Shown here one piece after another: positions 1 to 12,529 of a stretch of DNA of 12,529 nucleotides. The translations under genes were made by a program, and so were the position numbers. Each line of letters opens with the position of its first letter. The stretch's first letter is position 1. The DNA comes from a virus. Its lineage: Duplodnaviria; Heunggongvirae; Uroviricota; Caudoviricetes. The DNA lies in the IMG/VR virus record IMGVR_UViG_2657244940_000007, positions 1-12,529 of that record. The stretch is one strand, 5' to 3'. The notes below the pieces were generated by a model, which saw nothing but the letters and a program-made list of their open reading frames with translations, had not been told where the DNA came from and did no database searches.

Positions 1-419
1 TTTACACGCTCCAGCAGGATGCTTTGCTCATGGTAATAGTCCATAAGAAGAGTAACATCCTCTTTATCAAGCTTACTTAATTCGCTGAAGTAGGATTTAA
101 ACACTTTATCAGTCTGGTTTAATGCAATCTGTAAGCGAGGCCCCCCTAATGATTTGACATTAATGGCAAAAGGCTCGCCAACAAAATGCTCCGAATTTTC
201 GTCAAAGCCAATATATCTCGTTTTATCAAGAAAAGTGAGAGCGCGATGGTTATTAGCGATTTCATATGCAAACATTGTTCTGATACTGTCCCTCTCAGCC
301 TCCATGCTTATATCATCACGATGATTTGTATAAAATATATTTCCAACAAAGAGAACCATGGCAAGAATCACTGAACTTGCCTCCCAGTTAATATTTTTTA
401 ATCGTCGCTTAGTAAACAT
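1..419 (-). CDS. Partial CDS (5' end only; continues beyond window start): hypothetical protein with N-terminal hydrophobic anchor, carried in AT-rich accessory DNA at the P2 Z/fun-equivalent position
   Basis: My own reverse-complement translation from ATG at 419 gives 139 codons with no stop: MFTKRRLKNINWEASSVILAMVLFVGNIFYTNHRDDISMEAERDSIRTMFAYEIANNHRALTFLDKTRYIGFDENSEHFVGEPFAINVKSLGGPRLQIALNQTDKVFKSYFSELSKLDKEDVTLLMDYYHEQSILLERV... AAGGTG Shine-Dalgarno-like motif a few nt upstream of the ATG. One ~17-residue hydrophobic stretch (SSVILAMVLFVGNIFY). An uninterrupted frame this long in AT-rich DNA is unlikely by chance. Not in the supplied ORF track, presumably because it is open at the window edge. 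No family recognised. Confidence 0.6.
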   Translation of the reverse strand, partial: MFTKRRLKNINWEASSVILAMVLFVGNIFYTNHRDDISMEAERDSIRTMFAYEIANNHRALTFLDKTRYIGFDENSEHFVGEPFAINVKSLGGPRLQIALNQTDKVFKSYFSELSKLDKEDVTLLMDYYHEQSILLERV

Positions 420-640
420 ACCGCACCTTAATTATCAAAAATATTCCTTCAGTGTTATCTGGTTAGCCTAAACCAAGTCATTAAAGTCTGCAGGATATCA
501 TATACATAAAATGTATTGATTAGAATTTGCACTAATAAAATAATGCTTTACTAAAATCTACTCCAGACACAGAGCGGCCTGTCAGATTAGGCTTTACTCT
601 GTGCCATAGATATGTTTGCTCACTCCAGAGATCATACAAC

Positions 641-1168
641 TTATTGCGGCATTTCCGGCCATTCAGGATTTGCAGGATCCACACGACTGACCAGAACGCT
701 GTAACGCTCCCATGCATCCAGTCGGCTACGCTCCTCATCTGTTGCCATGTTCAGTCTGACCGCGCGCTCCAGCGGCAAAATCACGGATTCAGCATCTGCA
801 AGAAGTCTGGCTTTCCGGTTTTCTGCCTGCTGCAGCAATTCCTCTGCCGTATAAATGCGTTTAATCACTTTGCCGTCCTTAAACATCCAGCCCCCTGAAA
901 TGTCCGCCCGTCGGTTAGCAGTAATATCCGCCACTTCAACAACACTTAATCCATCCGGTCTGATAGCTGTCACATCCTTTTCCACATAGCGGATAATATT
1001 ATCTTTGTCGTACGCTATTTTTATCGTGTCATCAGCAAAATACTTTTGTTCTTCGTACCAGTTCTTACCATCTTCTGAAAAAAACCAGACAACATCAAAA
1101 CCCTTTGTCAATTGATATTGTTCAACCGTTTTTGGATTACCCGCCGTAATATTTTTTAAATGCTGCAT
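641..1168 (-). CDS. G: Phage tail fibre assembly protein (P2 gpG-like chaperone)
   Basis: 175 aa, same length as P2 gpG. Begins MQHLKNI and ends ...[14 protein letters not shown], as I recall for P2 G / Tfa family. Lies 3 nt downstream of the tail fibre gene on the same strand. Confidence 0.85.
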
Positions 1169-1171
1169 AAA

Positions 1172-3931
1172 TTATACCTGCGCCACGTTATACCATGTCC
1201 CGTTAATGTATTTCTGAACCGGCCTGTAATATACACCACCAATGTTATCGGCAGAGTTTGAGCCGGTATCCTGAACAATAATGCCGGAATATACACACCC
1301 GGACGGTGCCTGATGTGTCCATGTCATGCCATTGTTCGCAGGTTTGTATGTGGCAGCACCACCAAGCCGGATATCCCGGACATAGCGGGAATCAAAGTTA
1401 CCGTAATCCGAGGGATTAACACGCCCCGTAATATTTATGGTTTTATTACTTTGAATACTTCCCGAGACAAAGCGCATAATATGGACGCTATTAGCATAAA
1501 CATCCAGATTACCATCACCATTTTGTTTAAAGCCCGTGTCATTATCACCCAAAACAATCGAATTACCGCCAAGAGCACTGGATGTTCCTATACCCAGAGC
1601 ACCATTCAATTGACCACCAGATAACGGCAGTGCACCGACATCTCCCGCTGTAGGTTTTCGCGTTGTGGTATAAAACTCAGACCAGTCAGCCTCGAATCCG
1701 TAACCGTCACGAGCAGAACGATAAAAAATACCGCCGTTCTTATAATTAACGCGGAACTGGGCGGCGGGACAACTTCCTTCACCGATATTAAAATGAAGAA
1801 TTAACGTTGATGCCCCACCAGTAGTTGCGTTATAGGCTCCGCTACTCCAGTTCCACCCAACGGCTTTATCATTCGCAACGGTGTCTCCTGTTTTTCCTGA
1901 AGCAAATGCACCAATATTTTTCGGCGTCAAGTTAATATCTGATGTTCCATCAAACGAAACGTTATTAATTTTACGGGCTGTTTTCAGCTTTGTTGCTGTC
2001 GCCGCATTGCCGGACAGTTCACCAGAAAGGCCAGCACTGAATGTCTGTTTCGCGCCCCATGTCTGGGCTTCGTCAATGATTGGTACTCGTCTTGCTGTGA
2101 TCGTGCGGCTTCCCGGATTTCCTGAAATACGCACCATAAAAAAGCGGTAGTTCGCTTTACTTACAGTGCTGCGCCATACATGCATTGAGCGCCCCGTACC
2201 GGAATCATCACTCGGACCAACTGCGATGTTTATCAGGTTGCCATCAATGACGCCCCAGTCCATACCGTCGGGAATGTTGGTCATGTTATCAAGCCGCACG
2301 GTTATCAGACTGCCCGGCACAAAATCGTAGGTCTGCCAGTCCAGACTGGATAGTTTTGCCACTGCGCCACCGATGCCCAGATTCAGAGGCAACGAAAAGG
2401 AGTTATATACTTCTCGCCATTCGGTCCATTTGCTCCCGGCGTAGACGCGCTCAAAAGTGCGTCCCTGTGTGGTTTCTGATTTCCCTGTGGTTGTGTAACG
2501 CTGCCAGACAGACACACCATCAAAACGTCTGATTACTTCCAGTATCCCAAGTAGTGTCGCGCCAACGGTGTCCAGCATCGGACCGTTTGTTGCCTTTCCT
2601 GTAACACTGTAAATACCGGGGTCGGTTAGAACATTTAAATCACCTTCGTAATAACGACTCTCTGACTGATGACCGACTCTTAACCACGGTTCCCACTGCG
2701 GATTTGATGCATCCCAGCTTGCCGCAAGACAGCGGACATACATATTTCCACGGCGAGTGGTATAACGTTGCGTTCTTCCATAATTTCCGCCTTCGAGGAT
2801 CTCAAGCATCCCCTGAGCAAAGCCGCCTTCCTCTGGATAATTGCGTTCATATGAAGCTATAGCTGAGCTACTGTTACGCCATAAACCAAGATGCTCGGCG
2901 GCTCCAAGCGTATTCAGGTCTATAGTCGTACTCAAAGGGCGGGTAGCAGATTGAGTGTGACGCCATACGCCCCACGGACCATCAGTGCCATTCCACCTAT
3001 TGGCGAGTTTACGCATGTATACATTGCCGTCTCTCGTGGTAAAGCGTTGCGTACCTGCAAAATTGCCGGCAGCAAAAACCTCAAGCACACCGACAGCATT
3101 ATCTTCCGGGAAATTTTTCTCCAGTGTTGCGTTGGTGGATGTTGCTTTAGACCAGATACCTGAATAAGCCTTAACAGGACCAAACGTATTCAGATCAGCA
3201 TCAAGCGGCATTTCGCCATTGTTTTTCATAAACGTCAGGCTGGTAACGCCAACATTGTCCAGAAAAGCTGATTTATCCTGGATATCTGCACCGTTCTGAT
3301 TTTTCGCCAGACGTGAATTTGCGTTGTCATTCGCAGCCTTGACCGCTTTTGGCGTTGCCGCCAGCTTTTCACTGGTGCTGTTTGTTGCACTGCTTAACTG
3401 AGTAAAACCTTTTTCTGTCAGCGTGGCGTCAGGATGGCGGCGGGACTGCTCATGCTCTGCGATTTTGTCATCGACGTAATCCTGCGTAGCCATCACTGTG
3501 CTGGCATCAATACTCAGCTCAACGGACGCCACGTTGCTGAGAATAATAACCATGCGGCAGGTCTGCGCACGTCCGGAGCCTTCAGCCAGTTCTGGCTTAT
3601 AGCTTTCTGCCATGTTGGATACCGCAATCAGTGTTCCGGCATCGTCATACAGACCAAGCTCACGCATCCAGAAGCCGCCCACTTCTGGCGGAACAACCAG
3701 TTCAGCCACAATATAGTTTTTATTCTTATTATCCACACTGACTTTATTCAGAGCGTGACGCCAGACCTCATGCACCAGTTTCGTCTGACCGGCATCCGGC
3801 ACCGGTAATTTGCCATTACCGTCACCCACGGCCATTGCAGACAGGTTTACTTTTTTCCCGCCGGGGACAGTGGCGGCAGCCAGCTTTGCGGCTCCGGCAG
3901 TAGTGATAACGGTTTTAAATTTCGTGCTCAT
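1172..3931 (-). CDS. H: Phage tail fibre protein; P2 gpH-like N-terminal domain with a divergent, repeat-containing C-terminal receptor-binding region
   Basis: 919 aa. N-terminus (MSTKFKTVITTAGAAKLAAATVPGGKKVNLSAMAVGDGNG...) matches the conserved P2 H baseplate-attachment region as I recall it. Middle has three ~55-aa tandem repeats with a G.LE..(x)G..G.TQR[FY]TTR.GN.Y.R core. C-terminus resembles lambda Stf / T4 gp37-type tips. P2 H is 669 aa by recollection, so this is a longer mosaic. Confidence 0.9.
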   Translation of the reverse strand: MSTKFKTVITTAGAAKLAAATVPGGKKVNLSAMAVGDGNGKLPVPDAGQTKLVHEVWRHALNKVSVDNKNKNYIVAELVVPPEVGGFWMRELGLYDDAGTLIAVSNMAESYKPELAEGSGRAQTCRMVIILSNVASVELSIDASTVMATQDYVDDKIAEHEQSRRHPDATLTEKGFTQLSSATNSTSEKLAATPKAVKAANDNANSRLAKNQNGADIQDKSAFLDNVGVTSLTFMKNNGEMPLDADLNTFGPVKAYSGIWSKATSTNATLEKNFPEDNAVGVLEVFAAGNFAGTQRFTTRDGNVYMRKLANRWNGTDGPWGVWRHTQSATRPLSTTIDLNTLGAAEHLGLWRNSSSAIASYERNYPEEGGFAQGMLEILEGGNYGRTQRYTTRRGNMYVRCLAASWDASNPQWEPWLRVGHQSESRYYEGDLNVLTDPGIYSVTGKATNGPMLDTVGATLLGILEVIRRFDGVSVWQRYTTTGKSETTQGRTFERVYAGSKWTEWREVYNSFSLPLNLGIGGAVAKLSSLDWQTYDFVPGSLITVRLDNMTNIPDGMDWGVIDGNLINIAVGPSDDSGTGRSMHVWRSTVSKANYRFFMVRISGNPGSRTITARRVPIIDEAQTWGAKQTFSAGLSGELSGNAATATKLKTARKINNVSFDGTSDINLTPKNIGAFASGKTGDTVANDKAVGWNWSSGAYNATTGGASTLILHFNIGEGSCPAAQFRVNYKNGGIFYRSARDGYGFEADWSEFYTTTRKPTAGDVGALPLSGGQLNGALGIGTSSALGGNSIVLGDNDTGFKQNGDGNLDVYANSVHIMRFVSGSIQSNKTINITGRVNPSDYGNFDSRYVRDIRLGGAATYKPANNGMTWTHQAPSGCVYSGIIVQDTGSNSADNIGGVYYRPVQKYINGTWYNVAQV

Positions 3932-3941
3932 TGTTTCTCAC

Positions 3942-4472
3942 TTATCCGGGATAAACAGTAATAACATCACCATCACAGACCACACCGCCTGTATACAGAT
4001 AGCCGGGAATGTCCTGGATAATGTTCAGACCGATAAGGTGGCGACTTGCGGGTTTGGCATCGGCAATCAGCCGTTCCATTTCCAGATACATCTCCTCCGT
4101 GATGCCGCTTTCCAGCACACCGATATCAAGGCGAAAGGTGCCGGGCGGGTCGTTTGTCTCCCACCATTCCTTTACGTTAATGAGATAGCCGAGCGGCTCC
4201 ACCACACGCCGGATTGCGCCTATAGTGCCTTTATGACAGTGGATGAAATAGGCATCGCGAATAACGGCGCGTTTTGTCGCTTCCGGCCACTTTTCATCCC
4301 ACCTGTCGACCGAAAACGCCCATGCCAGCCACGGCAGCAAATTTGCCGGGCAGGTGTCCGGGTTCCACTGCTCACGAATCCTGACCGGCGTTTTTTCAAT
4401 TTCCGCACAGGCTTTTGCGGCAGCAACTTCAAGCGGTGATGAGCCGGTCGGCAGCAGTCGCGAATCACTCAT
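3942..4472 (-). CDS. I: Baseplate assembly protein I (P2 gpI-like)
   Basis: 176 aa, same as P2 gpI; begins MSDSRLLPTGSSPLEVAAAKACAEIEKTP..., ends ...DVITVYPG. Synteny J-I-H-G. Confidence 0.9.
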   Translation of the reverse strand: MSDSRLLPTGSSPLEVAAAKACAEIEKTPVRIREQWNPDTCPANLLPWLAWAFSVDRWDEKWPEATKRAVIRDAYFIHCHKGTIGAIRRVVEPLGYLINVKEWWETNDPPGTFRLDIGVLESGITEEMYLEMERLIADAKPASRHLIGLNIIQDIPGYLYTGGVVCDGDVITVYPG

Positions 4473-5372
4473 CCGAGCCTCCGGTCACGACGCGGTATTC
4501 GGTGCAGAAAGACGCCTGCGTACTGTTGAGCACGATGTCGGCCAGTGGTGCGGCCAGTTCGACACGCTGCACGCCTTCCACATGCAAAGCGGCATAAATG
4601 GCAGACAGACGGATGTCGCGCCCCAGCCGGTGCTGTGCCGTGATGTATGCTTCCAGTTTTTTCACGGCGGCCGCGCGGATGGGTTCACTTTCGGGACCAG
4701 GGTAAAGGTAAAGCGTGGCGTTTATCTGGTATTCAACAATGGCGGCAGACTGCACGGTCACGCGGTCGGCCACCGGTCTGACGTCCTCGCCATTCAGGGC
4801 GTTACGCACCACCGCCAGCAGGTCTTCGGATGCGACACCGTTATTCTCACGTGACAGCACAGAGATGGTGACGCAGGCCGGAGACGGACTGGTGACAGAG
4901 ATATCCGCGACACGCCCGTCAGCACTGCGGCCATGATACTGATAGGCACCCACCGACCCGGCGACGCTTAAACCTTCAAACGCCTGCTGAATACGCAGAC
5001 GATAATCGGTATCAGATTCCATCACTGCCGGTGTCGGCGGGATAGTCGAATCATCTGCCGGGGTGATAGTCAGACGCGTGGTGTTGTAATTGGCACCAAT
5101 CACATCAAGGTCATTACCCGCGGCACAGGCCAGCATCACCGCCCGTGCGGCCTCATTCACACGCTGACGCCAGATAAGCTCACGATAAGCATTTTCCTCC
5201 AGCAATTTGACGAGAGGCTCGGATTCCAGCGTCAGGGTACGGCGACCGCCTCCTGCTGGTCTTCCGGGTAAAGGGAAATCAGTGTCGCCTTGCGTTCGGC
5301 GAGAATGGTTTCAAAGTCCAGCTCCTCGACCACATCCGGTGCGGGTAGCTGGTTCAGGTCGATAATCGGCAT
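4465..5372 (-). pseudogene. J: Baseplate assembly protein J (P2 gpJ-like) interrupted by an apparent single-base frameshift near 5238..5244
   Basis: ATG at 5372 translates MPIIDLNQLPAPDVVEELDFETILAERKATLISLYPEDQQEAVAVP then TGA at 5232..5234. The rest of J (RTLTLESEPLVKLLEENAYRELIW... to GGSDE) continues in the adjacent frame and is the 4465..5205 ORF in the track, which begins at TTG. Combined length ~302 aa equals intact P2 gpJ. Read directly from the sequence on the minus strand: ...gcg gtc gcc gta ccc tga; one extra C (gcc cgt acc ctg) would restore ...AVARTLTLE... Confidence 0.65.
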
Positions 5373-5376
5373 GGTT

Positions 5377-5724
5377 TCAACTCACAGGGATGGTTAACGA
5401 AAGTGGCTGGCCGGTGTCGTTGTGCTGGCCGGTTAACGTGACCGTCATTCGCCCGTCAAAACTGCGCTCAGTGGTGACGGATGACAGGGTGACGCGGGGT
5501 TCCCATTTCAGCACCGCCATGTAACAGGCGACCTTAATCTGCAACTCAAGCGCCGGGGTCTGCGGCTGGTCAATCATTGACGCCAGCAACGAGCCGTAAT
5601 CACGACGCATCACCCGCGAGCCGACCGGTGTGCGCAGGATATCGCCGATACTCTGGCTGATATGCTCAAGGTCAGTGACAGTCAGGCCATCACTGCAATT
5701 CATTCCGAGATAACGCGCTGTCAT
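5377..5724 (-). CDS. W: Baseplate assembly protein W (P2 gpW-like)
   Basis: 115 aa, same as P2 gpW; MTARYLGMNCSDGLTVTDLEHISQSIGDILRTPVGSRVMRRDYGS... Four-base ATGA overlap with the V stop. Confidence 0.9.
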   Translation of the reverse strand: MTARYLGMNCSDGLTVTDLEHISQSIGDILRTPVGSRVMRRDYGSLLASMIDQPQTPALELQIKVACYMAVLKWEPRVTLSSVTTERSFDGRMTVTLTGQHNDTGQPLSLTIPVS

Positions 5725-6356
5725 AGAGGGCTCCCGGTTGTGCCGCCGCTGTCGCCGGGGTGTTTATGGGTATGCAGTACCTTACCATTTGATGAGAGTT
5801 CACCGCCGGTGTGTTCAATGTTGCCGCGCATCGTCCCGCCCTTCTGTACTTCCAGCGTGCCGGTAATCAGCCTGTTGGTGCAGACCACCTCCGGTGTGTC
5901 CAGGGTGATGCGAGTTGACGCTTTCACCATGACCACCGGCACCGTGGCGATAACAGAATCAGAAGCCGTCACGCTGGCCGTTTTAATTCCGCTTACCGTC
6001 AGTGCACTGGTTTCAGGTTCATACTCAATCACCGCCCCGTCAGGGAAACGGATGTACAGGGCATCCGCCGACGCAGACGGCGCGGGGTTATCACCGGAAT
6101 AAATCCCCGGCAGAACAAACGCCGTGTCGAGTTCGCCGCCCACGGACAGAATCAGCACCTGCTCCCCCACCGAAGGTGCCCACCATGTGCGTGAACGTCC
6201 GGCACGATGAGTCAGCCACTGAAGCCAGTCGGTGCACATGCCGCCGGTCTGCACACGGCAGCGACCGGCATTAAGGTCGGTTTCGACGATAATGCCGGTG
6301 CGAATCATGTTGCGCAGTGCGCGCGCGAGTTCCTGAATATTTGCGAGAGTGTTCAT
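5721..6356 (-). CDS. V: Baseplate central spike protein V (P2 gpV-like)
   Basis: 211 aa, same as P2 gpV; MNTLANIQELARALRNMIRTGIIVETDLNAGRCRVQTGG..., C-terminal HTHKHPGDSGGTTGSPL. Confidence 0.9.
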   Translation of the reverse strand: MNTLANIQELARALRNMIRTGIIVETDLNAGRCRVQTGGMCTDWLQWLTHRAGRSRTWWAPSVGEQVLILSVGGELDTAFVLPGIYSGDNPAPSASADALYIRFPDGAVIEYEPETSALTVSGIKTASVTASDSVIATVPVVMVKASTRITLDTPEVVCTNRLITGTLEVQKGGTMRGNIEHTGGELSSNGKVLHTHKHPGDSGGTTGSPL

Positions 6357-6422
6357 AACGGGAAGGATGCCGCCGGGTCATACCGTCGGCAATGTGACGA
6401 TGAGGTGTCGGGAATGGCACAA
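6357..6422 (-). promoter_or_regulatory. Probable position of the Ogr-dependent late promoter P_V, assigned by synteny only
   Basis: 66-nt S-V intergenic gap, where P2 has late promoter P_V. The only dyad I see is TGT-N10-ACA at 6405..6420, which does not match the TGT-N12-ACA spacing I recall for Ogr/Delta sites. Element not verified. Confidence 0.25.
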
Positions 6423-6875
6423 CTAACGGTCAAGGTGAGCCTGGATAATCTCTTCAATCATCTGCACATCCTCACCGGTAAAGCCGAGCAGAGGACGCGC
6501 CGGATAATCAATCTTCTTACCGTCTTTCCGGTTTTCTTCCGACAGACCGAACTGATGCACACTGGCGATTTTCGGTGACTTTCCGCCGTAAAACTCCATT
6601 GAGGCCTGTTCAGGGCTGGCGCGGATATGCAAAAAACGACTGGTGATAAGTTTCGCAAACATTTTTCGCTTAACGCGACCGGTCTTTTTTCTGGCGCTCT
6701 GCTGCTGACGTGGCGCGTAGGGTGTGCCGTCCGGGGCTTTCTGTGCCATCACCCGACGCTGCTGACTCTGCCGCAGACGCTTCGCCAGTTCGGCACTCAG
6801 TCGCCGACGCCCTGACGGTGACAGCGATTCAATCAGTCCGGTCAGCCGGTCTTCAAAACGCTTAAACTCATTCAT
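6423..6875 (-). CDS. S: Tail completion protein S (P2 gpS-like)
   Basis: 150 aa, same as P2 gpS; MNEFKRFEDRLTGLIESLSPSGRRRLSAELAKRLRQSQQRRV... Confidence 0.9.
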   Translation of the reverse strand: MNEFKRFEDRLTGLIESLSPSGRRRLSAELAKRLRQSQQRRVMAQKAPDGTPYAPRQQQSARKKTGRVKRKMFAKLITSRFLHIRASPEQASMEFYGGKSPKIASVHQFGLSEENRKDGKKIDYPARPLLGFTGEDVQMIEEIIQAHLDR

Positions 6876-7335
6876 CCCACTTGCTCACCAGTTCGCCATT
6901 GATATACAGCTCCATCGGGCGGGTGACCGGCTCCGGCGGCGGGGGTTCCGGGATATTCTTCACATGCAGTGCGCCGTCCACCTCACTGACCAGCGTGCGC
7001 TCGGTCAGCATCAGGCTGATGCTGATATCAAAGCTGCTGTCATTGTTGATGTCTGCATAAAACGTGAAGCCCTTTTTCTGACCTTCGTCGGTGGTCATGA
7101 TGTCGGGCTGATTTTCCCGCAGCCACGCCAGCACCGGCACGATGAGCAGGTCAAAATCACCGGTAAAGTCGGTCACAATGACATTGAGCGTGTAACGCTT
7201 TTCGAATGACAACGACGCCGCCAGTGTGGAGGCAATACTCCCGTTATCCACGAATATCCGCAGCATATCGGGGTTAGTTTTCAGCACCGTGACGGCATCA
7301 GTCAGCGCCCTGCGCAGGCTGTCGGGTTTGAGCAT
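6868..7335 (-). CDS. R: Tail completion protein R (P2 gpR-like)
   Basis: 155 aa, same as P2 gpR; MLKPDSLRRALTDAVTVLKTNPDMLRIFVDNGS... Overlaps the S start. Confidence 0.9.
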   Translation of the reverse strand: MLKPDSLRRALTDAVTVLKTNPDMLRIFVDNGSIASTLAASLSFEKRYTLNVIVTDFTGDFDLLIVPVLAWLRENQPDIMTTDEGQKKGFTFYADINNDSSFDISISLMLTERTLVSEVDGALHVKNIPEPPPPEPVTRPMELYINGELVSKWDE

Positions 7336-7588
7336 CGTTTTCGTCCTGACAGTGTTTAATCATTTTTACCTGGCTGGCACAGCGCGCCAGCGCGTTCTCA
7401 AGCTGCCGGATATCGGCACTTAAATCACCGTTCGTCTCCGGGTCGCTGCCCGGCATCGGGCAAAGACTCACTTTCGGGCAGGCGTTGTGGACAATCACTG
7501 GCATCGGTGCAGGCGGGGCGCTGGTGCAACCGGCGCACAGCATCAGGCAGGTCAGCGCCGTACCAGCGGCGAAAATCTTCGTTTTCAT
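7298..7588 (-). CDS. lysC: LysC, Rz1-like outer-membrane spanin (lipoprotein), embedded out of frame in the 3' part of lysB and running into the R start
   Basis: 96 aa. Signal-peptide-like N-terminus with Cys-containing lipobox-like segment (MKTKIFAAGTALTCLMLCAGCTSAPPAP...), proline-rich mature part. Embedded arrangement is the established P2 lysB/lysC organisation. Confidence 0.75.
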   Translation of the reverse strand: MKTKIFAAGTALTCLMLCAGCTSAPPAPMPVIVHNACPKVSLCPMPGSDPETNGDLSADIRQLENALARCASQVKMIKHCQDENDAQTRQPAQGAD

Positions 7589-7868
7589 TCAGTAATCTCG
7601 TGATGGTTTTCTCGCGCTGTGCTTCACGCTTCGCGGCGTTCTCCAGTTCCTGACGCAGTACCACCTGCGCCAGCTCGTTTTTGTCTGCTCTGGTGAGGGC
7701 AACATGAAGCTGATTTTTCAGCATGGTGATGGTCGTCTGCTGCCCGCTGGCGACGTTGTTCGCCCTGTCCAGCGAGGCGCGCAGGCTGGCGTTTTCATGC
7801 TTCGCCAGAAACAGCCCCGCCACCGCCAGCGATAACAACACAACCATCACAATCATCAGCCTTGACAT
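7425..7868 (-). CDS. lysB: LysB, Rz-like inner-membrane spanin
   Basis: 147-aa ORF (P2 LysB ~141 aa by recollection, so the true start may be an internal Met). N-terminal TM helix (MIVMVVLLSLAVAGLFLA) followed by a charged coiled-coil-like region. Position between lysA and R. Confidence 0.8.
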   Translation of the reverse strand: MSRLMIVMVVLLSLAVAGLFLAKHENASLRASLDRANNVASGQQTTITMLKNQLHVALTRADKNELAQVVLRQELENAAKREAQREKTITRLLNENEDFRRWYGADLPDAVRRLHQRPACTDASDCPQRLPESESLPDAGQRPGDER

Positions 7869-8281
7869 GGTTCCCGCCCCTCAAGACGCTGACGGCAGGC
7901 CGTGCGTATCAGCCGGAAAAACAGCGACGCCACGAGATAAATCAGCGCGGTAAAAATCCACCCGGCAGCGACCAGCGAGATAAATGTCGCCACCATCACA
8001 ACCAGAGCCGCCGCCCGTCTGCGCCACGGCACCGGCTGCAAAAACAGCGACGTGACAATCTTCACGGCCAGCGATTCCGGCGGCAGCTCCCGCCCGTAGC
8101 GTTCCAGCACATACTCAGTGGCATACACGCCGACACCACCGGCAAACACACAGATAACCATCGCCAGAATCGCCCATGCGGCGACAAAACTGACGGCCAC
8201 GCTCTGCGGGTAAATCAGGGACAGTGCCAGCATCAGCGCCAGCGACACGTTCAGCATCAGTGAAAGGGATAATTTCTTCAT
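7856..8281 (-). CDS. lysA: LysA, multi-pass membrane protein affecting lysis timing (P2 LysA-like)
   Basis: 141 aa, same as P2 LysA. Several hydrophobic segments. Position between K and lysB. Confidence 0.8.
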   Translation of the reverse strand: MKKLSLSLMLNVSLALMLALSLIYPQSVAVSFVAAWAILAMVICVFAGGVGVYATEYVLERYGRELPPESLAVKIVTSLFLQPVPWRRRAAALVVMVATFISLVAAGWIFTALIYLVASLFFRLIRTACRQRLEGREPCQG

Positions 8282-8295
8282 GGTGTTTACTCCGT

Positions 8296-8793
8296 TTAAG
8301 CCGGTACGCCGCCAGCGGTACGCCAGACGGTGACCAGTTTTTCCAGTGAATGCTCACGCTGACCGTAACCGGCACCCGGCAGGGACGCCCAGATATTGCG
8401 ACAGCGTGAAATGGCGCGCTCAATACATCCCGCCCGGATGTCATCCAGCGCACCGCGTTCGCGGATCAACTGAATGGCGAGTCTGTCCTGTGACAACGGA
8501 CTGAAATCCGGCAGGGCAAGCTGTTTGCGGTAATGCGGCCAGAACAGGTAAAGCTGCTGATAGCGACCGGAGGCCGTGGATTTTTCACCGCGACGGTTAA
8601 ACACCTTCGCCGGTCGGCCATGCGCGAACGGGTGGTCACTGTAGTCGGTGAAAATTTCCGGCTTCCCGTCCAGTCCGGTGACTATCACGTCATAGCCCCG
8701 GTTTTTCGTCAGCGGATGATTCGCCGTCCCTTCGGACACGGCCAGCATGTCGAGAAAGGCGGCGATATTCTGATGCGTGTTAATTACCGGCAT
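8296..8793 (-). CDS. K: Endolysin (P2 gpK-like lysozyme)
   Basis: 165 aa, same as P2 gpK; MPVINTHQNIAAFLDMLAVSEGTANHPLTKNRGYDVIVTG... Immediately downstream of the holin with overlapping stop/start. Confidence 0.9.
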   Translation of the reverse strand: MPVINTHQNIAAFLDMLAVSEGTANHPLTKNRGYDVIVTGLDGKPEIFTDYSDHPFAHGRPAKVFNRRGEKSTASGRYQQLYLFWPHYRKQLALPDFSPLSQDRLAIQLIRERGALDDIRAGCIERAISRCRNIWASLPGAGYGQREHSLEKLVTVWRTAGGVPA

Positions 8794-9074
8794 TACGGTT
8801 TCCCCCTGCCCTTAAAACGGCGCTGAATGGCAATCTCAATCACCTGATAACCGGCGATACCCAGCATGGAGCCGATGCCGCACACCGCAGGCAGTGACAG
8901 GTCAGGAAACTGCACCAGAACAACACCGGCAACCATCGAGACAAAACCACCGAGCAACATGCGCCCGATAAACAGACGCGGGGTGATGGGTTCACCACCG
9001 GCAAGCACCTTGCCGACAACAATCAGCACCCCAATCATGAAAAGCGACAGGACGCTTTTTTCTTCTGCTGTCAT
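8793..9074 (-). CDS. Y: Holin (P2 gpY-like)
   Basis: 93 aa, same as P2 gpY. Hydrophobic segments with a charged C-terminal tail (…QRRFKGRGKP). Directly precedes the endolysin. Confidence 0.9.
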   Translation of the reverse strand: MTAEEKSVLSLFMIGVLIVVGKVLAGGEPITPRLFIGRMLLGGFVSMVAGVVLVQFPDLSLPAVCGIGSMLGIAGYQVIEIAIQRRFKGRGKP

Positions 9075-9077
9075 GCG

Positions 9078-9281
9078 TTACTCCCACAGATTGACAGTTT
9101 CAGCCACGGGCGCGGTCTGAACGTCGGGCAGTTCGACGGCGGTGCCGTGCGGCAGCACCGCACCCAGTTCAGCCAGTCCCGGATTTGCGGCGAGCACGGT
9201 CTCAACCACGCCCTCAGTGCGCCCGTAATACCGGACACAAATGGCGTCGAGCGTGTCGCCCTGTAGCGCAAAGGTCTTCAT
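9078..9281 (-). CDS. X: Tail protein X (P2 gpX-like)
   Basis: Taken from the internal Met (MKTFALQGDTLDAICVRYYGRTEGVVETVLAANPGLAELGAVLPHGTAVELPDVQTAPVAETVNLWE, 67 aa = P2 gpX), not the 90-aa track ORF, whose 5' extension overlaps the preceding gene. The ATG at 9281..9279 overlaps the upstream TGA as TGATG. Confidence 0.8.
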   Translation of the reverse strand: MKTFALQGDTLDAICVRYYGRTEGVVETVLAANPGLAELGAVLPHGTAVELPDVQTAPVAETVNLWE

Positions 9282-9532
9282 CAGATTTGACTCACGATGC
9301 AGCGCGGCTTGTCCTGGATACGCGCCACCGCCCAGCGCATATCCCGCCACAGCTCATCAATGGTGCTGTCTATGCTGTCGGCCTTTTTGTCGCCTTTCGC
9401 ACTGGCATCCACGCCGCGATAACGCTCATAAAGCGACGCGGTCGCCATCGCACACACGGCGCGCCCGTAGTAAAAAACTTTGATGCTTTCACCGTCGATG
9501 TCGTCCGCCGGGACGTCCGCCAGACGAATAAC
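9281..9532 (-). pseudogene. L: 3'-terminal remnant (~83 codons) of phage capsid-completion gene L, fused in frame to the truncated treF
   Basis: C-terminal part of the 470-aa track ORF (…[81 protein letters not shown]) matches the end of P2 gpL as I recall it. Position immediately upstream of X fits P2 order L-X. No intact L N-terminus and no M, N, O, P or Q genes follow. Confidence 0.7.
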
Positions 9533-10693
9533 ATCGCGACGGGCACTGGCCTTCTGGCGGAACAGTGCTTCTGTCTCTTTCTCGCCTTTCAGCGCCGAGA
9601 TGTTGGCGATGGCGCTCTCCAGTTTAAACAGGAAGGCATTCAGATCGATGGGGATGAACTGGGTGGTACGAATGCTCGCCAGACGACCAGTATCACGCAG
9701 CCAACGGGAAGAGTAATCCCAACCGGAGGCCGCCCCCGCACGTAAATCGCGGTACACCTCGTTAGGCGGGCGACCAGAATGTTTCGCGGTTTCAACGTCC
9801 TCAAGCCAGGATTCGTCACGCGGCGTGTCGCGATCGTCCCAGTAACGGTTGAGCAGCGAGCCGTCCGGCATCCGCACAACATGGCGATAGGCCTGATTAG
9901 GGATCAACGATTCTGCACCGTCCATCCAGAAGGCATATTCCATTTTCAGGTGGTCGAGATAGCGGCGCGCGCCGCGTACACCATCTTCTTCAAACAACTC
10001 CACCATCAGCGCAAAAACCGGTGGTTGCGAGCGGCTCAAATAATAGGTGCGGTTGCCGTTGGGGATGTGGCCGTAGTTTTCGATCATCCAGGCGAAGTTA
10101 TCGGCCATGCATTTCAGCAAATCTTCCCGACCACTTTCCGCCAGCCCCAGCATGGTGAAATAGGAATCCCAATAGTAGGTTTCGCTAAAACGGCCGCCCG
10201 GGACAATATATGACTGCGGCAGCGCCAGCAGAGAAGACCACGGAATGTGATCCTGTGGTTCACGGGTTAGCACCGGCCACAGCTGGTCGATATGCTCTTT
10301 CAGGGAATTTTGCGGGTCCGATACATACTCGCTGGAGTAGACCTCCGGCAGCCAGAAGTGGTTTTCAACAAACTTGCGCAAGTCAAAATCACGATGACGG
10401 CGCACTTTACGGTAGCGGATTAAAATATCCAGCGGGTCCATTTTGGGTGCGCAGTCGGGAAAGGTTTTACTGTCGGGGAAAATTTTCGCCGACTGAACAT
10501 GCTCGAACAGTTCGAGATAGCGATCGGCAGGCGTCAGCGCATCAGAGGCGGGCAGCCCTTCAATCATCTCGGGTTCCGGTTCTGCCTCGATCATCTCATC
10601 CAGTTTTAATTCATACGGGTCCAGCTCATAGCAGAGATCGACCTCGATCATCAGTTCGTCTGGATTAGGGTTTTGAATTTTCTGATTGAGCAT
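9533..10693 (-). pseudogene. treF: Cytoplasmic trehalase gene treF, 5' portion only (codons 1 to ~387 of ~549), truncated by fusion to prophage DNA
   Basis: N-terminus [70 protein letters not shown]... matches E. coli TreF through ...[13 protein letters not shown], then switches to phage-L sequence instead of the expected AVNRYLWDDENG... GGAGG Shine-Dalgarno ~9 nt upstream of ATG 10693. Divergent from yhjA as in K-12. Confidence 0.85.
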
Positions 10694-10976
10694 AAGGATC
10701 CGACCTCCGAAATTCGTCGCTAATTATCGGGCTTTTCTTTAAGGGTAGTCATTCGCTCCGCCTGGTGGGCGACAAAGCGTGCGGTGGATCACGTTTATTA
10801 ACCTGCCAAAAAATATAACGCACTAATATCAATGGAATTTATAAAAATACGGATTTCGTGTTGTTTTTCATTTTCAGAACATTCAATCCTGCTCTCGCCG
10901 CAATCATGATATGCCATTCCTGATCTGGGTAATAGGCACTGGCTATCTTATTGATAGTTTATATTCATGTAATTGA

Positions 10977-10990
10977 TTGATTCCTATCAA
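10977..10990 (+). promoter_or_regulatory. FNR-type binding site (TTGAT-N4-ATCAA) upstream of yhjA
   Basis: Exact TTGATtcctATCAA palindrome at 10977..10990. Its centre is ~41.5 bp upstream of a TSS predicted from the TATGAT hexamer at 11012..11017, the geometry of a class II FNR-activated promoter. FNR/OxyR control of yhjA is from memory. Confidence 0.6.
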
Positions 10991-11011
10991 AAAGCATATC
11001 TCCCTGTTTTT

Positions 11012-11017
11012 TATGAT
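11012..11017 (+). promoter_or_regulatory. Candidate -10 hexamer (TATGAT) of the yhjA promoter
   Basis: TATGAT lies 22 bp downstream of the FNR palindrome and ~80 bp upstream of the yhjA ATG. No convincing -35, as expected for an activator-dependent promoter. Confidence 0.4.
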
Positions 11018-11097
11018 GGCTTTGTCTCGCAGAGACGTTTGCAGCATTCTGGAAAATTTTCTGGGTCACAATAACTCACCACCGTGAGGGAAGAATA

Positions 11098-12495
11098 ATG
11101 AAAATGGTCTCACGTATTACCGCGATCGGCCTGGCTGGCGTCGCGATTTGCTATTTAGGGTTATCTGGTTATGTGTGGTACCACGATAATAAACGCAGTA
11201 AACAGGCCGATGTTCAGGCATCTGCTGTCAGTGAAAATAATAAGGTTTTAGGCTTTCTCCGCGAAAAAGGATGCGATTATTGCCATACGCCTTCGGCAGA
11301 ATTACCTGCCTATTATTATATTCCCGGCGCGAAACAGTTGATGGATTACGACATAAAGCTTGGATATAAATCTTTTAACCTCGAGGCCGTGCGTGCGGCT
11401 CTGCTGGCTAATAAACCCGTTTCGCAAAGCGATCTGAATAAGATTGAATGGGTGATGCAGTATGAAACTATGCCGCCAACGCGTTATACCGCGCTACACT
11501 GGGCGGGTAAGGTGAGTGATGAAGAGCGGGCGGAAATACTGGCCTGGATTGCAAAACAGCGCGCGGAATATTACGCCAGCAATGATACTGCTCCGGAGCA
11601 TCGCAATGAACCGGTGCAGCCCATCCCGCAAAAACTGCCTACCGATGCGCAAAAAGTGGCGTTGGGTTTTGCGCTGTATCACGATCCCCGTTTATCGGCT
11701 GATAGCACCATTTCATGCGCTCATTGCCATGCGTTGAATGCGGGGGGCGTCGATGGCAGAAAAACATCGATTGGTGTTGGTGGCGCAGTTGGGCCGATTA
11801 ACGCGCCGACGGTATTTAACTCAGTATTTAACGTTGAGCAGTTCTGGGATGGTCGTGCGGCAACATTGCAGGATCAGGCTGGTGGACCGCCGTTGAACCC
11901 GATTGAAATGGCGTCGAAATCCTGGGACGAAATTATTGCTAAGCTGGAAAAAGATCCGCAGCTTAAAGCGCAGTTCCTCGAAGTCTATCCGCAAGGTTTC
12001 AGTGGCGAAAATATTACTGATGCCATTGCTGAATTTGAGAAAACATTAATTACGCCGGATTCCCCATTTGATAGATGGTTGCGTGGAGATGAGAATGCTC
12101 TGACGGCGCAACAGAAAAAAGGCTATCAATTATTTAAAGATAATAAATGTGCAACTTGTCATGGTGGTATTATTCTCGGCGGACGTTCCTTTGAACCGTT
12201 GGGGCTGAAAAAAGACTTTAACTTTGGTGAAATTACGGCGGCGGATATTGGTCGTATGAATGTTACTAAAGAAGAGCGTGATAAATTGCGTCAGAAAGTA
12301 CCCGGTTTACGTAACGTTGCTTTAACGGCACCGTACTTCCATCGCGGTGACGTGCCGACGCTGGACGGGGCGGTGAAACTGATGCTGCGCTATCAGGTAG
12401 GCAAAGAGCTGCCGCAGGAGGATGTGGATGATATCGTCGCTTTCCTGCACAGTCTGAACGGGGTTTACACGCCGTATATGCAGGATAAACAATAA
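11098..12495 (+). CDS. yhjA: Triheme cytochrome c peroxidase (YhjA/Ccp), membrane-anchored
   Basis: 465 aa. Three c-type haem motifs: CDYCH (res 59-63), CAHCH (207-211), CATCH (351-355). N-terminal hydrophobic anchor (ITAIGLAGVAICYLGLSGYVW). GAGGGAAG Shine-Dalgarno 6-9 nt upstream of the ATG. Matches E. coli YhjA from memory. Confidence 0.95.
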   Translation: MKMVSRITAIGLAGVAICYLGLSGYVWYHDNKRSKQADVQASAVSENNKVLGFLREKGCDYCHTPSAELPAYYYIPGAKQLMDYDIKLGYKSFNLEAVRAALLANKPVSQSDLNKIEWVMQYETMPPTRYTALHWAGKVSDEERAEILAWIAKQRAEYYASNDTAPEHRNEPVQPIPQKLPTDAQKVALGFALYHDPRLSADSTISCAHCHALNAGGVDGRKTSIGVGGAVGPINAPTVFNSVFNVEQFWDGRAATLQDQAGGPPLNPIEMASKSWDEIIAKLEKDPQLKAQFLEVYPQGFSGENITDAIAEFEKTLITPDSPFDRWLRGDENALTAQQKKGYQLFKDNKCATCHGGIILGGRSFEPLGLKKDFNFGEITAADIGRMNVTKEERDKLRQKVPGLRNVALTAPYFHRGDVPTLDGAVKLMLRYQVGKELPQEDVDDIVAFLHSLNGVYTPYMQDKQ

Positions 12496-12506
12496 TTAAT
12501 TTGATC

Positions 12507-12528
12507 GCCCGAACAGGAGTGTTTGGGC
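12507..12528 (+). terminator. Possible intrinsic terminator hairpin after yhjA (stem only; the U-tract would lie beyond the window)
   Basis: GCCCGAACA / GGAG loop / TGTTTGGGC: 9-bp stem including one G-U pair, starting 12 nt after the yhjA stop codon. Confidence 0.35.
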
Positions 12529-12529
12529 G

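What the first reader, a model, noticed from the sequence alone, without database searches (positions are those of the whole stretch)
5232..5244. Single-base frameshift splitting baseplate gene J
The first 44 codons of J (MPIIDLNQ...QQEAVA) are in one frame and terminate at TGA 5232..5234. The remaining ~258 codons continue in the adjacent frame. One missing base in the run acgggcg/acggcg restores a 302-aa P2-like J. Every other tail gene in the block looks intact, so this is either a recent inactivating mutation or a sequencing or assembly error.
Basis: seen in the sequence. Interest (0 to 1): 0.4.

Follow-up and report, generated by a model that had tools for sequence, protein, structure and literature searches.

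The report
Frameshifted baseplate gene in P2-like prophage
A P2-like prophage of E. coli has lost one base in its essential baseplate gene J, and because the same loss appears in several other assemblies it is a real inherited knockout, an ordinary early step of prophage decay, not a sequencing error.

Summary
On the minus strand, J starts at ATG 5372, keeps 44 native codons, reads two wrong ones (V, P) and stops at TGA 5234..5232. The other 257 codons plus stop (5238..4465) lie in the -1 frame. The cause is one missing C in GCC-CGT (codons 44/45), seen on the + strand as GG at 5241-5242 where relatives have GGG. Putting the base back gives a 302-aa J identical to WP_001121497.1 of E. coli 118UI.

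No exact match to the 65 nt around the site exists in 1,414 complete-genome E. coli records or 73 phage records. In IMG/VR, at least 120 contigs carry the intact allele and one carries the deletion. That deletion is also present in ten other loci checked at the nucleotide level: four NCBI drafts (one a full-length, otherwise intact prophage), three re-assembled SRA runs, one IMG genome and one metagenome contig. These carry two haplotypes of the prophage. A private sequencing or assembly error is therefore very unlikely.

I found no recoding signal. This is an ordinary inactivating frameshift in a defective Peduovirus prophage.

The window is a whole draft contig. Its apparent treF-gpL fusion at 9527-9531 sits on Ns in the public record and should not be trusted.

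The parts
5232..5372 (-). 5' fragment of baseplate wedge gene J: 44 native codons, 2 out-of-frame codons (V, P) and TGA
   Evidence: Translation; listed as a 46-aa ORF. The exact 46-aa product is called on 21 contigs elsewhere.
5241..5242 (.). Site of the 1-nt deletion: GG here, GGG in all intact relatives (coding strand GCC-CGT has become GCC-GT)
   Evidence: Single gap after window position 5240 in the alignment with E. coli 118UI. The 65-nt query around the site has no exact match in 1,414 E. coli records or 73 phage records.
4465..5238 (-). 3' part of J: codons T46..E302 plus stop, in the -1 frame relative to the ATG. It carries the Baseplate_J domain
   Evidence: Translation. Pfam PF04865, E = 1.2e-23. 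The repaired protein is 302/302 identical to the 118UI J protein.
4465..5205 (-). The ORF that gene callers report for the 3' part (TTG start, 246 aa). No Shine-Dalgarno-like sequence lies upstream
   Evidence: called as a 246-aa product in sister assemblies. Upstream 20 nt shown.
5377..5724 (-). Intact upstream neighbour W (gp25-like sheath initiator, 115 aa)
   Evidence: ORF. Same length as the annotated GPW/gp25 protein in 118UI.
3942..4472 (-). Intact downstream neighbour I (176 aa, wedge partner of J). Its start overlaps the end of J
   Evidence: ORF. Annotated as 'phage tail protein I' in 118UI.
1..9526 (-). Block of a P2-like (Peduovirus) prophage: cargo gene (5' part only), G, H, I, J*, W, V, S, R, lysC, lysB, lysA, K, Y, X and the 3' part of L
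   Evidence: 99.8% identical to Peduovirus P24E6b, phages D8 and 12W and E. coli 118UI. 100% identical to L004.
9527..9531 (.). Unresolved join between the phage and chromosomal treF. The public record reads NNTAN; the window shows AATAA

Best explanation
This is a genuine, heritable one-base deletion. One C was lost from the CCC run formed by codons A44 (GCC) and R45 (CGT) of baseplate wedge gene J, in a P2-like (Peduovirus) prophage of E. coli. Translation ends after 46 codons, and the Baseplate_J-containing 257 residues are left in the -1 frame with no credible way to be translated as part of J. [quoted passage not shown] The prophage could then still be repressed, replicate, make heads and lyse the cell, but it could not release infectious particles. 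Everything else visible is intact and about 99.8% identical to viable phages, so the lesion is evolutionarily recent. It is shared by a small group of isolates and is an early step of prophage decay.
For: The deletion is the only indel against the closest intact prophage over 9.5 kb, and the repaired J is 302/302 identical to a protein seen on at least 1,000 contigs. The intact allele is otherwise universal. There is no exact match in 1,414 E. coli records from complete genomes or 73 phage records. IMG/VR has at least 120 intact contigs against 1 deleted. GTDB representative genomes and JGI metagenomes have none deleted. The deleted allele was confirmed at the nucleotide level in ten loci besides the window's own record: NCBI drafts GCA_001373195.1, GCA_000941535.1, GCA_000936775.1 and GCA_000944435.1; Logan re-assemblies of raw runs ERR738821, SRR30543652 and SRR31481462; IMG genome 2693429642; and ENA metagenome ERZ28566114. 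A further run, ERR738892, encodes the same 46-aa product, but its contig ends at the stop codon. Two haplotypes carry the deletion: C at position 2213 in the window and L004, and T in L005 and L003. The deletion therefore predates their split. L004 shows the same allele in a full-length prophage in which all genes from Q to U have the lengths called in intact relatives. For the role of J: PF04865 Baseplate_J; phrog_6 'baseplate wedge subunit'; E = 4.5e-98 over residues 3-302 to PA0618/Tri1a of the R2 pyocin baseplate, PDB 6U5B; and the P2 wedge is 2 gpJ + 1 gpI (bioRxiv 10.64898/2026.09.14.750843).
Against: I could not see raw reads for the window's own assembly. Five of the supporting assemblies have neighbouring ENA-style accession prefixes (CDQU, CDQY, CDRA, CDRO, CCCK), and the ERR738xxx runs probably belong with them. 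They may all be one project, one platform and one clone, which leaves fewer truly independent confirmations: SRR30543652, IMG 2693429642 and ERZ28566114. These drafts are very fragmented (contig numbers up to 1567) and contain doubtful joins, so data quality is modest. The loss of function is inferred from the known role of J and was not tested.
Confidence: 0.86

Rival explanations
1. It is a sequencing or assembly error in this draft contig, and the real genome has an intact J.
For: The window is a complete 12.5-kb contig of a fragmented draft, GCA_000947375.1. That contig also holds an unresolved join with Ns. The change lies in a short homopolymer. Neither the deleted allele nor a full-length match to the window is present among 5,426 complete E. 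coli genomes.
Against: The identical deletion is found in ten other loci. These include contigs re-assembled from raw reads by a different pipeline (Logan), a run from a much later accession series (SRR30543652), an IMG genome that differs from the window by one SNP, and a metagenome contig. A context-driven systematic error should also show up in the more than 1,400 records with an identical local sequence, and it does not. A 3-base run is not a typical indel-error site for short reads (established knowledge).
Confidence: 0.07
2. J is still made, either by programmed -1 ribosomal frameshifting or as two polypeptides (a 46-aa fragment plus a re-initiated C-terminal fragment) that assemble into a working wedge.
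For: The downstream frame is open from about codon 21, so a -1 slip anywhere before the TGA would give a full-length product. P2 does use a programmed -1 frameshift elsewhere, in tail genes E/E+E' (established knowledge). The allele persists in several isolates.
Against: There is no X XXY YYZ slippery heptamer in the first 46 codons and no homopolymer of 4 or more near the site. A +1 slip at CCC-UGA leads into the wrong frame, which stops about 20 codons later. The two-ORF arrangement is absent from every phage record and every complete genome, so it is not conserved. The first in-frame starts downstream (TTG 5205, GTG 5160, GTG/ATG 5139/5136) have no Shine-Dalgarno-like sequence and would remove at least 55 N-terminal residues. 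Those residues lie inside the region conserved with the solved pyocin homologue, which aligns from residue 3.
Confidence: 0.04
3. It is a reversible on/off switch: slipped-strand phase variation at the C run controls virion production.
For: The same one-base loss also appears in a J/I background that is 3% divergent (L013) and in a roughly 6% divergent, gap-rich contig (L007). That pattern could mean the mutation recurs.
Against: A run of 3 is far below the tract lengths that give useful slippage rates (established knowledge). The deleted allele is extremely rare: 0 of 1,414, and 1 against at least 120. The 5' 170 nt of J is nearly invariant among P2-like phages, so recombination between prophages can equally explain the allele on another background.
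Confidence: 0.02

Closest known systems
Bacteriophage P2 gpJ and its Peduovirus orthologues (e.g. Peduovirus P24E6b, Escherichia phages D8 and 12W, E. coli 118UI prophage protein WP_001121497.1)
   Same: Same gene order, W-J-I-H-G. The nucleotide sequence is identical at all 908 positions to P24E6b, D8, 12W and 118UI apart from the missing base. The repaired protein is 302/302 identical to the 118UI protein. It has the Baseplate_J domain.
   Different: The reading frame is broken after codon 44. No intact 302-aa product is encoded.
PA0618 (Tri1a/Tri1b), triplex or wedge protein of the Pseudomonas aeruginosa R2 pyocin baseplate (PDB 6U5B, 6U5K, 5CES)
   Same: Clear full-length homology, E = 4.5e-98, J residues 3-302 against 2-295. 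It plays the same role as the gp6-like wedge subunit of a minimal contractile baseplate.
   Different: It belongs to a different organism and to a domesticated tailocin, and there it is intact and functional.
Decayed P2 remnants in E. coli, such as the widespread remnant that encodes the 48-aa J fragment 'MPII...AVARITI'
   Same: That J is also destroyed right after codon 45. It shows that P2-like prophages commonly decay in E. coli.
   Different: That remnant has lost most structural genes through large deletions (P'-W-J'-G-cargo-FI'-ogr). Here a single base is missing and everything else visible is intact.
Programmed -1 frameshift in P2 tail chaperone genes E/E+E'
   Same: Two overlapping frames within a tail gene of the same phage family.
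   Different: The E/E' site is conserved and has a slippery sequence (established knowledge). The J site has no slippery heptamer and is not conserved.

Membership tests
Baseplate_J / P2 gpJ (T4 gp6-like wedge protein) | Significant match to the Baseplate_J profile | tested here: met
   PF04865, E = 1.2e-23 on the 3' part. phrog_6 'baseplate wedge subunit', E = 6e-92, on the intact orthologue.
Baseplate_J / P2 gpJ (T4 gp6-like wedge protein) | Position between W (gp25-like) and I, upstream of tail fibre genes H and G | tested here: met
   ORF map compared with the annotated 118UI prophage.
Baseplate_J / P2 gpJ (T4 gp6-like wedge protein) | One uninterrupted ORF of about 302 codons | tested here: not met
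   Stop at 5232..5234 after 46 codons, with the rest in the -1 frame. The gene is a pseudogene of this family.
Baseplate_J / P2 gpJ (T4 gp6-like wedge protein) | Protein needed for baseplate and tail assembly | not testable with these tools
   Inferred from the P2 wedge being 2 gpJ + 1 gpI and from the gp6-like assignment.
Peduovirus (P2-like) prophage | P2 late-gene synteny and high nucleotide identity to sequenced Peduovirus genomes | tested here: met
   99.8% identity over window 1..9526 to P24E6b, D8 and 12W. Gene order X-Y-K-lysA-lysB-lysC-R-S-V-W-J-I-H-G.
Peduovirus (P2-like) prophage | Complete genome (head genes Q-L, tail genes FI-D, and int/C/cox/B/A) | tested here: inconclusive
   The window leaves the phage at 9526 across Ns. 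Sister contig L004/L014, 100% identical over the shared 9,526 nt, carries genes Q through U. The early region was not seen.
Programmed ribosomal frameshift site | Slippery heptamer X XXY YYZ (or a +1 shift-prone site that leads into the correct frame) in the overlap | tested here: not met
   No heptamer in codons 1-46. A +1 shift at CCC-UGA enters a frame that stops about 20 codons later.
Programmed ribosomal frameshift site | The two-frame arrangement is conserved among relatives | tested here: not met
   None of 1,414 E. coli records and none of 73 phage records share it.

The most novel reading that the evidence does not exclude
The codon 44-46 region of J may be a recurrent breakpoint at which E. 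coli disarms P2-like prophages. The same one-base loss occurs on a 3%-divergent background (L013). An unrelated, widespread remnant has its large deletion starting immediately after codon 45. Loss of J might be favoured because the host keeps immunity, lysis genes and cargo genes while the prophage can no longer spread. On that reading the frameshift would mark selection for domestication, not neutral decay.
Probability: 0.06. Interest if true: 0.35.

Novelty: already known. Interest (0 to 1): 0.1.

Why it matters
It matters mainly for annotation. J in this contig should be marked as a pseudogene (frameshifted), not as two hypothetical proteins, and the prophage should be scored as defective even though it looks complete. 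It is a clean example of a very young inactivating lesion: one base, with everything else about 99.8% identical to viable phages. The check also shows that the window's apparent trehalase-gpL fusion protein is built on unresolved bases and should not be treated as a real chimeric gene.

Tried and rejected
1. For several calls I read the 470-aa TreF(N-terminal)-gpL(C-terminal) ORF at 9281..10693 as evidence that a deletion had removed the head genes. I rejected this. The public record has N at 9527, 9528 and 9531. Two sister drafts join the same prophage to other chromosomal genes, each with an N exactly at the join: rcsC|X in L005 and a pfkB-type kinase|V in L012. L004 continues normally into L-M-N-O-P-Q.

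2. An exact look-up of the 470-aa fusion protein found nothing, presumably because the record's Ns give a different called product. A search for the junction sequence in IMG/VR also found nothing.

3. L016 was retrieved through the 246-aa product but has the intact CCC allele. Its J is split by a run of 10 Ns, so I did not count it.

4. L007 shares the deletion but is a gap-rich contig with many broken genes: 21 gaps in 4.5 kb. I give it little weight.

5. A literature search for run accession ERR738892 found nothing, so the source project and strain remain unidentified.

6. Scans of GTDB representative genomes and JGI metagenomes for the deleted allele returned nothing.

7. I considered recoding (-1, +1, re-initiation) and found no supporting signal.

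Full report
**What is in the sequence**

All the genes of interest are on the minus strand. J begins at ATG 5372. It reads MPIIDLNQLPAPDVVEELDFETILAERKATLISLYPEDQQEAVA (44 codons), then V, P and TGA, which is + strand 5232..5234. The rest of the protein, TLTLESEPLVKLLEENAYRE...VVTGGSDE*, is open in the frame that starts at 5370. That is the -1 frame relative to the ATG, and it ends at 4465. The ORF list shows the two pieces as a 46-aa ORF (5232..5372) and a 246-aa TTG-started ORF (4465..5205).

**The lesion**

The closest relatives are Peduovirus P24E6b, Escherichia phages D8 and 12W, and prophages in E. coli 118UI, AMSCJX02 and others. They match all 908 bases of the broken gene but span 909 bases. 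A global alignment of window 1..9526 with the 118UI prophage shows 20 substitutions and a single gap: a G missing after window position 5240. On the + strand the window has GG at 5241-5242 where relatives have GGG. On the coding strand, GCC-CGT (A44-R45) has become GCC-GT. Restoring the C gives a 302-aa protein identical at every residue to the 118UI J protein, WP_001121497.1. That exact sequence is recorded on at least 1,000 contigs.

**What J is**

- The 3' part matches Pfam Baseplate_J (PF04865, E = 1.2e-23).
- The intact orthologue matches PHROG 6, 'baseplate wedge subunit'.
- It aligns over residues 3-302 with PA0618/Tri1a of the R2 pyocin baseplate (PDB 6U5B, E = 4.5e-98).
- A recent cryo-EM study of P2 reports that each of the six baseplate wedges is a heterotrimer of two gpJ and one gpI (bioRxiv 10.64898/2026.09.14.750843).
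- gpJ is treated as the T4 gp6-like component of the minimal baseplate (PMC4604203).

A stop after codon 46 should therefore prevent wedge, baseplate and tail assembly. This step is inferred and was not tested.

**Real mutation or error?**

The intact allele is essentially universal:

| Collection | Result |
|---|---|
| E. coli records from 5,426 complete genomes, 65-nt query around the site | 1,414 records match; none exactly (best 98.5%, i.e. the gap) |
| Phage records, same query | 73 records match; none exactly |
| GTDB species-representative genomes | 0 deleted |
| JGI metagenomes | 0 deleted |

The deleted allele is nevertheless not private to this window. An exact look-up of the 46-aa product found 21 contigs. 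The window itself turned out to be the whole of contig CDRA01000063.1 of draft assembly GCA_000947375.1.

A nucleotide check confirmed the deletion in ten other loci:
- NCBI drafts GCA_001373195.1 (L004), GCA_000941535.1 (L005), GCA_000936775.1 (L011) and GCA_000944435.1 (L012)
- Logan re-assemblies of raw runs SRR31481462 (L007), SRR30543652 (L009) and ERR738821 (L010)
- ENA metagenome ERZ28566114 (L013)
- IMG genome 2693429642 (L003)

Run ERR738892 (L008) encodes the same 46-aa product, but its contig ends at the stop codon.

Most of these are 100% identical to the window where they overlap. L003 and L005 differ from the window and L004 by one SNP at position 2213. The deletion therefore sits on two haplotypes and predates their split. 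An assembler artefact is excluded, because the Logan contigs come from a different pipeline. A context-driven systematic error would be expected in some of the more than 1,400 records with the same local sequence, and none shows it.

I conclude with about 0.86 confidence that this is a true inherited deletion.

There are caveats. The CDQU, CDQY, CDRA, CDRO and CCCK drafts and the ERR738xxx runs look like one project and possibly one clone. That leaves SRR30543652, the IMG genome and the metagenome contig as the clearly separate confirmations. I also could not see the reads of the source isolate.

**How recent, and what else is broken?**

Nothing else is visibly broken. In the window, G (175 aa), H (919), I (176), W (115), V (211), S (150), R (155), lysB (147), lysA (141), K (165), Y (93) and X have the same lengths as in the annotated intact prophage. 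L004/L014 is 100% identical to the window over 9,526 nt. It carries the same frameshift inside a full set of genes from Q to U (Q, P, O, N, M, L ... FI, FII, E, T, U), with the lengths called in intact relatives. Identity to viable phages is 99.8%. The lesion is therefore young: a first hit in prophage decay.

**Recoding**

I considered recoding and found no support for it:
- There is no X XXY YYZ heptamer in the first 46 codons, and no homopolymer of 4 or more near the site.
- A +1 slip at CCC-UGA enters the wrong frame, which stops about 20 codons later.
- The first in-frame restarts (TTG 5205, GTG 5160, GTG/ATG 5139/5136) have no Shine-Dalgarno-like sequence. They would remove at least 55 N-terminal residues that lie within the region conserved with the pyocin homologue.
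- The split arrangement is not conserved in any phage or complete genome.

**A correction about the surroundings**

Window 9532..12529 is core E. coli chromosome: the 5' 1.16 kb of treF, then ccp. It is 99.9% identical to phylogroup-B2-like strains. A 470-aa ORF (9281..10693, minus strand) reads as TreF residues 1 to about 390 fused in frame to the last 90 or so residues of head-completion protein gpL. I first took this as a deletion that had removed the head genes.

The public record, however, has N at 9527, 9528 and 9531 (NNTAN). The window shows A at those positions. Two sister drafts join the same prophage to other chromosomal genes, again with an N exactly at the join: rcsC|X in L005 and a pfkB-type kinase|V in L012. 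L004 continues normally through L into the head genes. These joins look like unresolved scaffolding joins in very fragmented drafts. The fusion protein and the apparent truncation should not be believed without PCR.

**Comparison and verdict**

This is a frameshifted pseudogene of P2 gpJ in a Peduovirus prophage, a well-known kind of lesion. It meets the sequence and synteny criteria of the family and fails only the intact-ORF criterion.

The one mildly curious point is that the same base loss also sits on a 3%-divergent J/I background (L013), and that an unrelated, widespread P2 remnant has its large internal deletion starting right after codon 45. That could hint at a fragile or selected site. 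Recombination within the nearly invariant 5' end of J, or plain coincidence, explains it equally well.

Interest is low (0.1). The value is correct annotation: J is a pseudogene, the prophage is defective, and the junction is unreliable.

Noticed in passing
window 9281..10693 (-), join at 9527..9531: A 470-aa in-frame 'fusion' of TreF (N-terminal ~390 aa) with the C-terminal ~90 aa of phage head-completion protein gpL. The five junction bases are NNTAN in the public record (CDRA01000063.1) and appear as AATAA in the window, so the chimeric gene and the apparent loss of the head genes rest on unresolved bases.
   Followed up: yes
L005 6234; L012 737-739: Sister draft assemblies join the same frameshifted prophage to other chromosomal genes (rcsC to mid-X; a pfkB-family kinase to mid-V). 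Each has an N exactly at the join. This points to a recurring scaffolding problem in that batch of drafts, not to three independent deletions.
   Followed up: partly
L017-L019, gene at 4001-4147: A different, widespread P2 remnant (listed in 94 index blocks, including a 5.98-Mb genome) encodes a 48-aa J fragment 'MPII...AVARITI'. A large internal deletion begins immediately after J codon 45, leaving P'-W-J'-G-cargo-FI'-ogr. The breakpoint is within one codon of the frameshift studied here.
   Followed up: partly
L013 (ENA ERZ28566114), whole 1531-nt contig = window 3969..5499: The same one-base deletion occurs in a J/I sequence with 48 mismatches to the window. Almost all of them lie downstream of position 5122. 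This could be recurrence or recombination of the allele into another P2-like prophage.
   Followed up: partly
protein cluster of the 46-aa fragment: Many 'partial' J N-terminal products in public drafts end at residues 44-56 at contig ends. Short-read assemblies of E. coli evidently often break at this point in J, perhaps at a boundary between conserved and divergent sequence where a genome holds two P2-like prophages.
   Followed up: no
window 3..371 (-); full gene in L004 15002..15547: The variable cargo slot between G and FI holds a 181-aa gene of unknown function (phrog_3829; no Pfam or PADLOC match), and the window has only its first 123 codons. Other P2-like elements carry defence-type genes at this slot: SduA_C in L007, and AAA_15/AAA_21/DUF4435 in L017.
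   Followed up: partly
window 1172..3931 (-): Tail fibre H is 919 aa, with a phage tail-collar N-terminus, a fibre repeat and a weak gp37_C match. As far as I recall, the classical P2 H is about 669 aa (not checked here). The only SNP separating the two frameshift-bearing haplotypes (position 2213) lies in this gene.
   Followed up: no
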